Assembly (NCBI GenBank): GCA_951406725.2
Contig: OX597828.1
Coordinates: 49,352,001-49,416,000 of the forward strand
Reading direction: 5' to 3'
Source of the DNA: Octopus vulgaris
Lineage: Eukaryota
DNA: 64,000 nucleotides
Each line of letters begins with the position of its first letter. The first letter of the stretch is position 1. The position numbers and the translations under genes are program-made. Under the pieces are notes generated by a model. It was given only the letters and a program-made list of their open reading frames with translations. It was not told where the DNA came from and did not search any database. This document shows positions 13,045 to 53,975 of this stretch, one piece after another.

Positions 13045-13239
13045 TGATGATGATGTCTGTGGAACACTCAGCCACTTATATGTTAATTATCTGCCCCTGA
13101 ATTAACATATAAGTGGCTGAGTGTTCCACAGACATCATCATCATCATCATCATTTAGCATGGAAAGCGGATGCTAAATGATGATGATGATGTCTGTGGAA
13201 CACTCAGCCACTGATATGTTAATTCAGGGGCAGATAATT
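13045..13239. repeat. Direct-inverted-direct triplication (double palindrome)
   Basis: 44-bp arms 13045-13088 / 13100-13143; ~70-bp arms 13085-13160 / 13170-13239. Confidence 0.9.
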
Positions 13240-47190: not shown

Positions 47191-48075
47191 TACTGTTATT
47201 AGTGGTTTACGTTTACAACTAAAATTGACTCCTGTTTTTAAGTGGTACTTTGGTATTTTACCAATTCCATAACACTATCTCAAGCACAAATTAACTGAAA
47301 ACCTTGGAAAGTGGGTGGTGGTGATAGTGGTGAGGTAATCAAAGGAATGACCTAGAGGTCAATGACAGCACCAGATTGTGATAGGGAGAACCAACAGGTA
47401 TTTATGCTGAATGCACGGAATACACTGAAGCTTAGCAGTGTGTCAGATGGATGTTGTAGCAATATGGATATCCTCCATGTTATCCAAGTACAGTGTTCCT
47501 GAAAATCTTGCCATGTAACATGGAAGCCAATGACCCAAAAGTTTCAATATTATGGAAATCCACATTACAGCAAAATATGGAAGCATAGCTGCAGGCTTTT
47601 AAACCAAGGTCAACCCTGTTTAAATGAATCCTTAATTAAAGGTATTCCAACCATAGCAAACCTGCCTTGTTAAGGAGTAAATAGAGTTATATTATCCAAT
47701 ATGTTTTGTCTATATATAATAGTGAGATGTGATGGGAGGGAGACATTGCTGCTATTTCTAGCAAGTCAAGTGAACTACTAGAACTAGAAGCTCCATGTAG
47801 TGGTCATATCTGGAAAGTAATTCATTTCACAATCACACACACAGATTCATGTACATAAACTAGAGTACATGCAAATACAATAAAACAACAATAAAATTTT
47901 GTTACCATAATACTTGATTCCATAAATATGGTACCTACATACACCTAGGTGGACTATGGTCACCACAGTATCTATCAAGATGGACTGCATGACTGTATGG
48001 CAGTCATACTGTCCATCTTGATAGATAACTACCACATGGTATCTATGAACAGCTACATGGACTGTGCAATCACAT

Positions 48076-48114: not shown

Positions 48115-48462
48115 TCTCTTTTACTTGTTTCAGTCATTTGACTGTGGCCATGCTGGAGCACTGCCTTTAGTCGAGCAAATCGACTCCAGGACTTATTCTT
48201 TGTAAGCCTAGTACTTATTCTGTCAGTCTCTTTTGCCGAACTGCTAAGTTATGGGGACGTAAACACACCAGCATCAGTTATCAAGCAATGTTAAGAGGAC
48301 AAACACAGACACACAAACATACACACACACATGCATATATATACGACGGGCTTCTTTCAGTTTCCGTCTACCAAATCCACTCACAAGGCTTTGGTTGGCC
48401 TGAGGCTATAGTAGAAGACACATACCCAAGGTATAGTAGAAGACACATACCCAAGGTGCCAA
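48113..48462 (-). mobile_element. SINE family A, 5'-truncated, with small internal tandem duplication
   Basis: Family match; tagtagaagacacatacccaagg repeated twice. Confidence 0.85.
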
Positions 48463-48565
48463 GGTGTAAAACAATGTAATCTTCTTTTCAGGGAATAATA
48501 CCAGTGATATCTTCGAAACATGTGTCAGAAGTAAAAGAATTTGAATTACACCTGCATTAAACTCC

Positions 48566-48617
<52 letters not shown>

Positions 48618-48620
<3 letters not shown>

Positions 48621-48793
48621 GGTCCCGGGTTGATTCGGGGTTAACCACAGTTAATAAGGTACTCAATACATAGCAGAGTAAAATTAATTTATTATATAGA
48701 AGGAGCTTCTACAGGACTAGAACTGTTTCATTCAAGAGAAATCTTCCTGAAGATTTCTCTTGAATGAAACAGTTCTAGTCCTGTAGAAGCTCC

Positions 48794-48802
<9 letters not shown>
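48618..48802. mobile_element. Fold-back hammerhead element between two long (TA)n runs
   Basis: Perfect 54-bp inverted repeat 48693-48746 / 48749-48802 with 2-nt spacer, plus 75-bp unique tail; TA runs at 48571-48617 and about 48797-48847. Confidence 0.7.
48743..48789 (+). ncRNA. Type I hammerhead ribozyme motif, intact core
   Basis: cttc-CTGAAGA-t ttc tctt gaa t-GAAA-cag ttctagtc ctg-TA-gaag: stem I cttc/gaag, stem II ttc/gaa closed by U.U, stem III cag/ctg plus A-U. Predicted cleavage after 48785. Confidence 0.75.
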
Positions 48803-48850
<48 letters not shown>

Positions 48851-48935
48851 AAAATAAGAAATAGAATGTCCTTGGTACAGTATTATATATTTGAAAAAAA
48901 TTAATAGAAGTGGCTTTTCTGATCATTTTTCCACT

Positions 48936-49162
48936 TTAACCCTTTAGTATTTAAACCGGCCATATCTGGCCAAAATATTTAATCTGTTTTATGTTCAAAC
49001 TGACCAGATCCAGGCTCTCACACCTACCCTACAATGTTATTCTACATTAAGTAATTACACCATCAAGATCTTGAAGATATGAGATAATGCATGATTAATT
49101 CAAATCAATGGGAATCAATAAGCATTATGTTTGATAGGATAATCTGAACACTAAAGGGTTAA
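48936..49162 (+). mobile_element. piggyBac-type MITE family 1
   Basis: TTAA-CCCTTTAGT...ACTAAAGGG-TTAA. Confidence 0.9.
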
Positions 49163-49659
49163 TAATTAAATGTTTTATAAGTTATTAGATGTGTAACTTA
49201 TAAACATCTAATCATTAAGGGGGAAAAAGTTATCAGAAAAGCAAGGTGGTACTCCAGCATTGCCACAGTCTAATTACTGAAACAAATAAAAGAATAAGTA
49301 TATGAAGCTTGCCCGTACTTACAACATCAAGGTGGATTATACCACCACATGGCATGTATAAACAGCCAGGTAGTCTGTATCACCACAGTTGGACTAAGGT
49401 GATCACCAGGGACAGAAAGATATAATGCAGTAACATCGGAGATGTGAACCAATGATCTCTTGGTATGTAGACCAATAATTTAACAACTTGCTGCAGTTGG
49501 GTTGATTTTTATACTGAACATTGGGCGACAGGACACAGAAGAAGTGGTCTGAACAAAGGTAGCAGGAGGGAGTGGATGCAACTAGTTTATTTTATTAAGA
49601 ATTATAATTCTTGTTTACTAAGACTGGTGTAGTAATTCACACACACACACACATTCCTG

Positions 49660-50165
49660 AGAGGCCAGAAAAAGCACTTCAAAGACACCTTAACTCTTTA
49701 GCATTCAGATTTCTCTGTTTATTTATTTGCGTTGATTTGAATTAGACATGCATTACCTTGTAGGTTTGAAGTTTCAATGACGTGATTGAGTGATATTGTA
49801 GGGTAAGTGTGTAAGGCCAGATCTGGCTGATTTAAATGCTAAACGGTTAAAAGCTTCTCTAAGGGCCTTTAGCATCAGCCAGGTCACATGGAAGGAGATA
49901 GGTCAGAAGAGAAGCAGGTGATAATCAGCTGTCCACAAGGACATGCAAATCTGTAAAAAAAATGCTGCAACTGAGCAATGCAGGCCAGACAGAAAAACCA
50001 GCACCATCAAGTCTCCAACCACCAGCACCATTCCCTGTTCACACTGCCAGAGAGCTTCAGGGTATGGCTTCGCCTGATAAGTCAGCAATGCTCCCACAAA
50101 GCTAAACCCCATTCCCAACTCCAGAATGACTAGAGTATCCTCATTGCTCCAACAGATAAATACCA
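49660..50165 (+). pseudogene. RTE (BovB-like) LINE C-terminal fragment with decayed C2H2 finger
   Basis: GQKKHFKDTL|KASLRAFSISQVTWKEIGQKRSR**SAVHKDMQIC...TIPCSHCQR; stops and frameshift; split by a TTAA MITE. Confidence 0.75.
49690..49850 (-). mobile_element. piggyBac-type MITE family 1 inserted in an RTE fragment
   Basis: TTAA at both ends; RTE reading frame is continuous when it is removed. Confidence 0.8.
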
Positions 50166-52886: not shown

Positions 52887-53975
52887 CTTTTCGACTTTTA
52901 TCTTCTTCATAGGTAGTCCAAATCCATCCTCAACTTTGGCATTAAATTCATACGGATCTGGTGTAGGATTTTCCTTTTTAAGATGGGGCACATCTCCCCC
53001 TCGTGGTTCCAACACTGGATTATAAATGGTAGATGTATCCAACCCATTGCTGATAACAGCAGCTGATGACGACGGGTTATTGTTTCCATTGGAAACGCAA
53101 CAGTCAGCACCGGAAGACGGAGCAGGACAGGAAGTAGATGATGACGACGAACAAGGTGTTGACGAAGAAGATGACGACGACAACGACGATGATGAAGGTG
53201 GTGGTGGTGGTGGTGGCGGTGGACAAGAAATGGATGATGCTGACGACAATGATGATGATGATGCTGTAGATGTGGAATTAGTTGTAGCCGAACTAGAACT
53301 AGTTGATGACGATGATGATGACGATGTCGATGATGACAATGATGATGATGATGATGTAGATGATGTGCCTGAAGCACTGGACTTGGTCTTGTCTTTCATC
53401 TTCTCCTTCTTGTGGGACCCTTTCATTTTGGGTGACTTCTCCTGTTTACTACTGTTATTGTTATTGTTGTTGCTGTTGCTGTTGTTGCTGTCACCAGCAG
53501 GAGACGGCTTCATCTTGTCGGCGAGCAGCAGAACACCATTGGTGCCGCCACCACTGCCCACCACCACGCTGCTACAAGAGGCACTACAAGCCGGCCCCGA
53601 CGCTGCCCCGCTAGTAGTAGCGGCAACAGCATTGCCGCCACCACCGCTGCCGCCGCCGCCCCCTCCGGAGCCGCCCGGCACGCCAGCGTCACCAACCGAC
53701 GAGGTGGGACCCACGGAGGACGACCCTCCCGTCGTACCACCGCCTCCGCCAGACGAAGTCGCGCCGCCTCCGCCGCCACCTCCACCACCACCACCACTAC
53801 TGCCACTGCCACCACCTCCGCCGCCAGGGGTCGATGCTACACACTTTCCAGAATCTGGTTTTACAATTTCATGTTTCGGTTCAGCCTTGTTATTTGCTCC
53901 ACTCACGTTTTTCCTCTTTATCTTCATCTTTAGCCCTTTATCTACAGTTGCTTGGTGCTCGATATTGCTATTCAT
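52887..53975 (-). CDS. ZNF608: First coding exon (363 codons) of a ZNF608/ZNF609 / scribbler (brakeless)-like transcriptional co-repressor; downstream exons not found in the window
   Basis: N-terminal HQATVDKGLKMKIKRK...KHEIVK block recognised from scribbler/brakeless-family proteins; basic KSPKMKGSHKKEK and C-terminal DPYEFNAKVEDGFGLPMKKIKVEK islands separated by poly-G/S/N/P. ATG in AAAATG context with in-frame TAA at 53991-53993. Phase-0 donor AAG|GTAATT at 52887/52886. Only strongly GC/CpG-rich stretch in the window. Family assignment is from motif memory, not a search. Confidence 0.8.

What the first reader, a model, noticed from the sequence alone, without database searches (positions are those of the whole stretch)
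48693..48802. Perfect 54-bp fold-back palindrome hinged on an intact hammerhead core
Seen: arms 48693-48746 and 48749-48802 are exact reverse complements with a CT spacer, and the spacer is the CU of CUGAAGA. The plus strand therefore has a complete ribozyme (cttc-CTGAAGA-tttctcttgaat-GAAA-cag ttctagtc ctg-TA-gaag) whose stem I 5' strand comes from the opposite arm. The minus strand has a core-truncated copy (AGGAAGA) plus the 75-nt tail. The whole unit is embedded between two ~45-50-nt TA runs. Known: Penelope-like insertions often carry an inverted terminal copy. Inference: reverse transcription folded back at the ribozyme. Zero mismatches imply a recent insertion. A full transcript would form a long dsRNA hairpin that competes with the ribozyme fold.
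Basis: partly seen in the sequence, partly recalled or inferred. Interest (0 to 1): 0.8.

Follow-up and report, generated by a model that had tools for sequence, protein, structure and literature searches.

The report
Head-to-head Penelope retroelement stump
The perfect 54-base mirror repeat is real and is likely two cut-short tail ends of an abundant Penelope-like jumping gene joined head to head inside a TA repeat, an insertion form already described, and its hammerhead-ribozyme motif is predicted to be locked inactive by the mirror.

Summary
The palindrome is exact: arms 48693-48746 and 48749-48802, spacer CT, between TA runs of 47 and 51 nt. The + strand holds a complete type I hammerhead motif at 48743-48789 (1 descriptor hit, 0 of 200 shuffles). 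Its layout matches Hydra-clade Penelope-like element (PLE) hammerheads. Contigs of four public runs show an abundant family (8341/1656/991/103 contigs laid). The stem I 5' strand CTTC is native to the family, not lent by the left arm. Other copies invert at many positions, not at this nucleotide. The hinge uses a native 4-nt inverted repeat (CTTC/GAAG) and lies about 38 nt from the cleavage site. A hammerhead-free repeat in the same window has the same kind of junction. Head-to-head PLE palindromes, a one-sided tail and TA targeting are all published (PMC3846280, PMC8557442, PMC11167929). The unit lies in a predicted intron of a ZNF608-like gene whose strand carries the broken core. Not shown: the exact hinge in independent reads, the empty site, a linked RT gene, cleavage. 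Verdict: ordinary member of a known insertion type.

The parts
48571..48617 (.). Left (TA)n run, 47 nt; inferred half of the microsatellite target
48618..48692 (-). 75-nt 3' tail of the element, on the left copy only; one private substitution at 48652 against nearly all family depth
   Evidence: tables 2, 3
48660..48680 (-). Small predicted hairpin in the tail; by eye like tail hairpins of Hydra-2_Amil and Hydra-2_Ajap
   Evidence: fold; supplement sequences read (eye comparison, not aligned)
48693..48746 (-). Left arm: 5'-truncated element copy on the - strand, core broken (AGGAAGA)
48743..48746 (+). CTTC: native stem I 5' strand of the right copy and at once the reverse complement of core GAAG of the left copy; 4-nt junction microhomology
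   Evidence: table 7
48747..48748 (+). Spacer CT = C3, U4 of the hammerhead core, native to the right copy
48743..48789 (+). Type I hammerhead motif: stem I 4 bp, core CUGAAGA, U + 3-bp helix II + U, GAA, stem III 4 bp with 8-nt loop holding palindromic CUAG; predicted cleavage after A48785
   Evidence: N7 (48751) and loop II (48759) vary in the family, table 3
48749..48802 (+). Right arm: 5'-truncated, tail-less element copy on the + strand, ending in TATATA that merges with the TA run
48797..48847 (.). Right (TA)n run, 51 nt
52887..53975 (-). Context: coding exon of a ZNF608-like gene ending at a GT donor; the next conserved exon is not in the window, so the unit is inferred to lie in its intron, about 4.1 kb from the donor

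Best explanation
The unit consists of two truncated 3' ends of one abundant repeat family joined head to head between two TA runs; the family is likely a Penelope-like retroelement, and the join was likely made during insertion when two cDNAs, primed from opposite strands of a cut (TA)n target, paired through the family's native 4-nt inverted repeat CTTC/GAAG. Shown: the anatomy; family abundance; native CTTC; tail-less 3' ends joined to TA a few bases into the tail, besides copies covering the full tail; many other head-to-head joints. Inferred steps: (1) the element's GIY-YIG endonuclease cuts both strands of the TA run; (2) one cDNA starts at the far end of the tail and stops at or beyond core GAAG, the other starts at the tail-less site (here the internal UAUAUA) and stops just past stem I; (3) both read through the predicted cleavage site, so the template was uncut; (4) the 3' GAAG of the second pairs with CTTC of the first and both are filled in, leaving the native CT as spacer. 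The hammerhead is a passenger. In a + strand transcript it is predicted to be buried in the 54-bp hairpin, and the predicted host pre-mRNA (- strand) carries only the broken core. Odds: Penelope-like identity about 0.9; this two-cDNA route 0.55.
For: Exact anatomy. Descriptor hit 1 vs 0 of 200 shuffles. Of the 7 variable places listed for the family, the only one in the core is N7, the free position (48751 A>T, about 30% of depth in X1). U after A9 and U before G12 occur in 14 of 26 Hydra-clade hammerhead rows; ACAG/CTGT stem III in 4 of 26; (TA)n is the listed target for 26 of 27 Hydra families; Penelope-13_HM has a 5'-truncated inverted copy (PMC8557442 supplement). Palindromic loop 3 fits PLE hammerheads (PMC4209133; predicted homodimer -12.8 kcal/mol); 8341/1656/991/103 contigs laid from X1/X21/X22/X3; loose ends before 48743 in all four; (TA)n joined before 48687 (20/11/14/1 contigs) and 48683 (11 in X1, 4 in X22); 15 distinct joints at depth 4-184, one (48673>48743) in three runs. 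Inverted 5'-truncated copy and one-sided tail: PMC8557442. Palindromes at head-to-head junctions: PMC3846280. Both target strands cut and extended, two RT start sites bounding the tail, uncleaved RNA as main substrate: PMC11167929. 0 of 14 antisense ends lie within 3 nt of the cleavage site.
Against: No RT or endonuclease gene is linked: no genome is held, and the unit has no other copy in the window. The exact hinge is in none of the 32 listed pieces; the only gap-free piece across it (X3 record 30) has 3 other letters and 19 nt on its shorter side. The empty site and a target-site duplication could not be examined. The right copy ends at TATATA, 6-10 nt short of the family's common tail-less ends. 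The locus at 13045-13143 shows that the same junction type forms in a repeat without a hammerhead, probably at DNA level. Rfam does not recognise the motif. The arm sequence was not found in the Craig et al. consensus file, and Hydra-1_Obim has a different hammerhead. Some downstream joints may be misalignments at short internal inverted repeats.
Confidence: 0.55

Rival explanations
1. Same element, built at insertion by self-priming of one antisense strand: it folds back at CTTC-AG-GAAG, copies itself through the tail, and the primer-side tail is then trimmed at the internal TATATA by the endonuclease on integration. This is the version closest to the first reader's fold-back.
For: PMC3846280 interprets junction palindromes as self-priming on an antisense template; PMC8557442 ascribes the one-sided tail to endonuclease resolution. 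The AG loop on the - strand fits. The arms are identical. Contig pieces cross the hinge region with 1-12 gap letters in three DNA-type runs (table 8).
Against: The mini-hairpin has no predicted stability (DNA MFE unfolded; forced 3-bp fold +1.1 kcal/mol). Many joints are strongly asymmetric, with the antisense copy ending at E54-E102 and the sense copy starting near E-4, which self-priming at a hairpin does not produce.
Confidence: 0.23
2. One ordinary truncated copy was inserted, and a later replication template switch (TA run to internal TATATA, back at GAAG/CTTC) replaced its 5' part by an inverted duplicate.
For: Explains why the right arm ends exactly at TATATA and gives the CT orientation. 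The palindrome at 13045-13143 has a native spacer between native AATT repeats in a hammerhead-free repeat. The private change lies in the tail while the arms are identical.
Against: Head-to-head joints are frequent in this family across runs and are a published hallmark of PLE insertions. No control family was laid, so the excess is not measured.
Confidence: 0.12
3. Assembly or library fold-back artefact.
For: The exact hinge was not seen in the listed contig pieces. PMC8557442 notes that such structures trouble assemblies.
Against: Related palindromic junctions occur in contigs of independent runs at depth 9-59. Three pieces have 31 or more reference letters on both sides (X21 record 14; X22 records 22, 23), and one form (48711-48773, 8 gap letters) is in both X1 and X21. 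The two flanks differ and the tail is one-sided, as published for real insertions.
Confidence: 0.07
4. A selected regulatory element: a hairpin-gated ribozyme, or a source of small RNA or editing substrate for the ZNF608-like host gene.
For: Inferred intronic position; 54-bp perfect hairpin on either strand; the family is present in a run guessed to be RNA.
Against: The host strand has the broken core. The hammerhead fold is predicted to be rare even without the left arm (6.5e-6 for the right copy, 1.6e-3 for the minimal motif, nearest-neighbour energies without tertiary contacts). No conservation of this locus was shown. Rfam miRNA matches are generic hairpin scores far below gathering.
Confidence: 0.03

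Closest known systems
Head-to-head inverted pLTR insertions of endonuclease-bearing Penelope-like elements (Arkhipova et al. 2013, PMC3846280; Craig et al. 2021, PMC8557442)
   Same: 5'-truncated inverted copy joined at the 5' end, palindrome at the junction, tail on one side only, AT-rich or (TA)n target with no discernible duplication.
   Different: Both copies are stumps (54-60 and 129 nt) with no ORF; the tail is 75 nt (about 65-69 nt from the family's common short ends) against the 30-40 nt usually reported; the junction falls inside the hammerhead.
Hydra clade of PLEs and its hammerheads (PMC8557442, Files S1, S2)
   Same: Type I core CUGA(A/U)GA with U before and after helix II (14 of 26 rows), ACAG/CUGU stem III (4 of 26), hammerhead near the 3' end, (TA)n target, similar tail hairpin by eye.
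   Different: Loop III is 8 nt (1-3 nt in the listed Hydra rows); helix II has only 3 bp (2 of 26 rows); not the sequence of Hydra-1_Obim; no protein was available to place it in the clade.
Poseidon element of Anolis carolinensis in vitro (Frangieh et al. 2024, PMC11167929)
   Same: Two classes of 3' end bounding a tail; products expected from both target strands; uncleaved template.
   Different: There the hammerhead overlaps the ORF start and the RT start sites are not homologous to the target; here the short end coincides with a TATATA that matches the target.
Animal non-LTR retrozymes (PMC7229834; bioRxiv 10.64898/2026.07.22.740005)
   Same: Non-coding, high-copy, type I hammerhead, PLE-related.
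   Different: Retrozymes are head-to-tail tandem units of a few hundred bases; this locus is a head-to-head pair with one intact core.

Membership tests
Type I hammerhead ribozyme | Core CUGANGA ... GAAA ... UH with three helices | tested here: met
   all core bases, 4+3+4 Watson-Crick pairs; 0 of 200 shuffles
Type I hammerhead ribozyme | G10.1-C11.1 pair closing helix II (highly conserved per PMC4209133) | tested here: not met
   U.U at these places, no variant listed in the family; the same U...U occurs in 14 of 26 Hydra-clade rows, so this is a known variant form
Type I hammerhead ribozyme | Match to an Rfam hammerhead model | tested here: not met
Type I hammerhead ribozyme | Self-cleavage | not testable with these tools
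   Needs an assay; the fold is predicted to be rare
Penelope-like element (EN+) | RT plus GIY-YIG endonuclease ORF | not testable with these tools
   No genome held; the stump has no ORF and nothing links it to one
Penelope-like element (EN+) | Hammerhead in the 3' pseudo-LTR | tested here: met
   Predicted cleavage site 92 nt from the tail end
Penelope-like element (EN+) | Inverted or tandem 5'-truncated partner copy | tested here: met
   This locus; 14 inverted and 1 tandem joint in other copies (tables 5, 5c)
Penelope-like element (EN+) | Optional 3' tail at one end | tested here: met
   Tail on the left copy only; TA-joined ends at 48683-48689 in other copies (table 7)
Penelope-like element (EN+) | Dispersed multicopy repeat | tested here: met
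   8341, 1656, 991 and 103 contigs laid in four runs of two organisms; no copy number can be read from this
Penelope-like element (EN+) | Target-site duplication or empty site | not testable with these tools
Hydra clade | (TA)n target and hammerhead layout | tested here: met
   whether the U...U layout is specific to this clade was not tested
Hydra clade | RT/EN phylogeny | not testable with these tools
   No protein linked
Non-LTR retrozyme | Head-to-tail tandem units each with a full hammerhead | tested here: not met
   Head-to-head, one full core; one tandem joint seen in another copy (table 5c)
microRNA precursor | Match to a family at gathering score | tested here: not met
   Best 63.5 bits against a gathering score of 119

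The most novel reading that the evidence does not exclude
In this family the hammerhead serves less as a cutter than as the place where reverse transcription ends and turns: 5' ends pile up at the outer edge of stem I, and the built-in CUUC/GAAG complementarity between stem I and the core supplies the pairing that makes head-to-head palindromes. Hints: 8 of 15 listed joints start their sense copy at or 5' of E+3 (P = 0.06 to 0.8 depending on the range assumed); 8 of 24 listed DNA-run pieces cross the hinge region with 1-12 gap letters; loose ends before 48743 are heterogeneous (agreement 0.60-0.69).
Probability: 0.2. Interest if true: 0.5.

Novelty: new member of a known kind. Interest (0 to 1): 0.17.

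Why it matters
As a single locus it matters little: it is one stump of a very abundant repeat. It is a clean, minimal example of the published but mechanistically unresolved head-to-head PLE insertion, in which the spacer orientation and a 4-nt microhomology constrain the route. If junctions in this family truly cluster at the hammerhead's 5' edge, that would bear on the open question of what PLE hammerheads do (PMC8557442 calls their function unclear; PMC11167929 finds cleavage dispensable in vitro), and thousands of copies make that testable. Perfect intronic hairpins of this kind would also be double-stranded RNA substrates for editing or silencing (inference).

Tried and rejected
Own-genome search: no genome held. 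Rfam: no hammerhead model hit; miRNA hits rejected as generic hairpin scores. A core-only pattern in the window was not above chance (20 matches, 12 of 100 shuffles as high), so the full descriptor was used instead. Pattern scans of metagenome (68 loci) and viral (11 loci) collections: all 79 rejected as chance, best blastn E 0.033, mostly Glu-rich coding sequence. Search for the arm or tail in published consensus files: no match. The 'stem I from the opposite arm' reading was rejected. A hinge set by ribozyme cleavage was rejected: the hinge is about 38 nt from the site and 0 of 14 antisense ends are near it (sense starts at the site could not be detected with this reference). Plain fold-back of the tail-primed cDNA was rejected from the spacer orientation. 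Organism naming through the host protein gave only unnamed close relatives; mollusc is supported by named hits at 68-71% over short stretches, cephalopod is my inference from recalled repeat content. Pfam gave nothing significant for the host exon.

Full report
Observation. The palindrome is as described. Arms 48693-48746 and 48749-48802 are exact reverse complements over 54 nt with spacer CT, flanked by TA runs of 47 nt (48571-48617) and 51 nt (48797-48847), with a 75-nt segment (48618-48692) beside the left arm only. It is the longest perfect non-simple palindrome in the window and far beyond chance. The window is microsatellite-rich animal DNA. No genome is held, and the unit has no second copy in the window.

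The hammerhead. On the + strand 48743-48789 has all core bases, a 4-bp stem I, a 3-bp helix II flanked by U and U, a 4-bp stem III with an 8-nt loop, and a predicted cleavage site after A48785. A full descriptor finds only this site in the window and nothing in 200 shuffles; a core-only pattern is not above chance. Rfam does not call it. It lacks the G10.1-C11.1 pair that PMC4209133 reports as highly conserved. However, 14 of 26 Hydra-clade rows in the hammerhead table of PMC8557442 have the same U after A9 and U before G12, 4 of 26 have the same ACAG/CTGT stem III, and (TA)n is the listed target of 26 of 27 Hydra families. The loop III centre CUAG is palindromic, and the stem III hairpin is predicted to pair better as a homodimer (-12.8 against -1.4 kcal/mol), as proposed for PLE hammerheads. 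Cleavage was not tested.

The family. One sequencing-run search listed 24 runs, 22 holding part of 48400-49100. I laid 4 of them on 48618-48802 only; all are contigs, read to 76-100%. 8341, 1656, 991 and 103 contigs were laid from X1, X21 (organism A), X22 (organism C) and X3 (organism A, RNA by guess). Seven variable places are listed; the only one in the core is N7 (48751 A>T), and another is in loop II (48759). At 48652 nearly all depth differs from this copy, a private change in the tail. Loose ends before 48743 occur in all four runs (44, 28, 8, 4 contigs), and all four consensus cells end in AG. The family therefore reads ...AG-CTTC-CTGAAGA natively: stem I's 5' strand is not a gift of the left arm, and the native stem is likely 6 bp (AGCUUC/GAAGCU), cut to 4 here. 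(TA)n is joined before 48687 (20, 11, 14, 1 contigs), 48683 and 48689: these are tail-less 3' ends. 43 further loose-end rows were not shown.

Other junctions. Tables 5 and 5c list 15 distinct joints, 14 head-to-head and 1 tandem, at depth 4-184. With E0 at C3 of the core, sense copies start at E-4 (6 joints, five of them with 1-6 letters between), 1, 3, 15, 15, 16, 19, 25, 26 and 34. Antisense copies end from E19 to E102, none within 3 nt of the cleavage site. One joint is shared by X1, X21 and X22. Of 32 pieces shown (of 11,127, chosen by the tool), 8 of 24 from the three DNA-type runs cross the hinge region with 1-12 gap letters, three of them with 31 or more reference letters on each side; the gap positions are not given, so their place at the hinge is inferred. 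One piece in X3 crosses without gaps but with 3 other letters and only 19 nt on one side. No listed piece reproduces this exact hinge. So head-to-head joints are common and are not fixed at one nucleotide. An excess near the core's 5' edge is possible but not established (8 of 15; P = 0.06, 0.31 or 0.80 for three assumed ranges). E-4 is also where the reference stops being native sequence, which biases the count.

Mechanism. Both copies point their 3' ends outward into TA. The left copy is the long form with tail; the right is a short form ending in TATATA. CTTC at 48743-48746 belongs to both, and the CT spacer is native to the right copy. A cDNA primed at the tail end that folded back on itself would leave AG, not CT, on the + strand, so the strand that turned back started at the tail-less end and the tail needs another template. 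The simplest account is two cDNAs from the two strands of the cut target, joined through CTTC/GAAG (inferred, 0.55). It agrees with in vitro work on an Anolis PLE, which cuts and extends both strands, has two RT start sites bounding the tail, and uses mainly uncleaved RNA (PMC11167929). Self-priming of one antisense strand with later trimming (0.23) follows PMC3846280, but the mini-hairpin has no predicted stability and asymmetric joints are common. A later DNA template switch (0.12) also yields the structure. The window offers a control: the palindrome at 13045-13143 keeps an 11-nt native spacer between native AATT repeats in a repeat without a hammerhead core. Both cDNAs run across the cleavage site, so cleavage did not set the hinge.

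Consequences. A ZNF608-like coding exon lies at 52887-53975 on the - strand and ends at a GT donor. Five homologues give no further exon in the window, so the unit is inferred to be intronic. The host strand carries the broken core and a 54-bp hairpin. On the + strand the hammerhead fold has predicted probability 1.6e-3 alone, 6.5e-6 in the right copy and 7.5e-48 with both arms (no tertiary contacts modelled). Identity of the arms bounds their divergence at 5.4-6% (95%), about 8 million years at 0.09 per 25 million years (rate from PMC13282606), if the organism is an octopus (my inference) and there was no gene conversion.

What is known. PMC3846280 describes head-to-head inverted pLTRs with palindromes at the junction and an optional tail (passages and parts 2-3 of 5). 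PMC8557442 describes the inverted 5'-truncated copy, the one-sided tail and TA targeting (passages; supplement searches and parts 2, 3, 53 of 59). PMC4209133 reports opposite-strand hammerhead pairs 100-700 bp apart (parts 1-2 of 4). PMC11167929 was read in parts 1-2 of 4; bioRxiv 10.64898/2026.07.22.740005 in part 1 of 5 (its supplements are closed and were not seen); PMC7229834 and PMC13282606 in passages plus one supplement search. Eight searches turned up no description of this family's hammerhead or of junction clustering at a hammerhead; the library lacks most subscription papers and Repbase was not available. Earlier AI notes on other genomes report similar stumps and 5' ends near the hammerhead; they are leads, not support.

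Verdict. Real in the assembly and very likely in the genome; an ordinary, stump-sized head-to-head insertion of a Penelope-like family, probably of the Hydra clade. Membership rests on non-coding features, since no RT gene could be linked. New member of a known kind; interest 0.17.

Noticed in passing
window 13045-13239: Direct-inverted-direct triplication in an (ATC)n-containing repeat: perfect 44-bp arms around an 11-nt native spacer bounded by AATT, a second hinge at 13139-13191, and a third copy to 13239. Same junction logic as the finding, without a hammerhead.
   Followed up: partly
window 47969-48027: 27-bp, 93% palindrome with a 5-nt spacer 600 bp left of the finding, next to a segment (48028-48074) with a 72% direct copy at 49341-49387.
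   Followed up: no
window 52887-53975 (-): Low-complexity-rich coding exon of a ZNF608-like gene; the next exon is more than 52 kb away or outside the window.
   Followed up: partly
window 48407-48456: Exact 25-nt tandem duplication inside a dispersed repeat.
   Followed up: no
window 48784-48798: TAGAAG-CTC-CTTCTA directly after the cleavage site forms a hairpin that is predicted to sequester the stem I 3' strand even in a normal copy; it could act as a native off-switch.
   Followed up: partly
window 48660-48680 (-): Tail hairpin resembling, by eye, those in the 3' ends of Hydra-2_Amil and Hydra-2_Ajap; a candidate conserved RT-binding element.
   Followed up: partly
window 46003, 48936, 51670 (+) and 49791-49850 (-): Dispersed repeat family with three direct copies about 2.7-2.9 kb apart and one inverted copy.
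   Followed up: no
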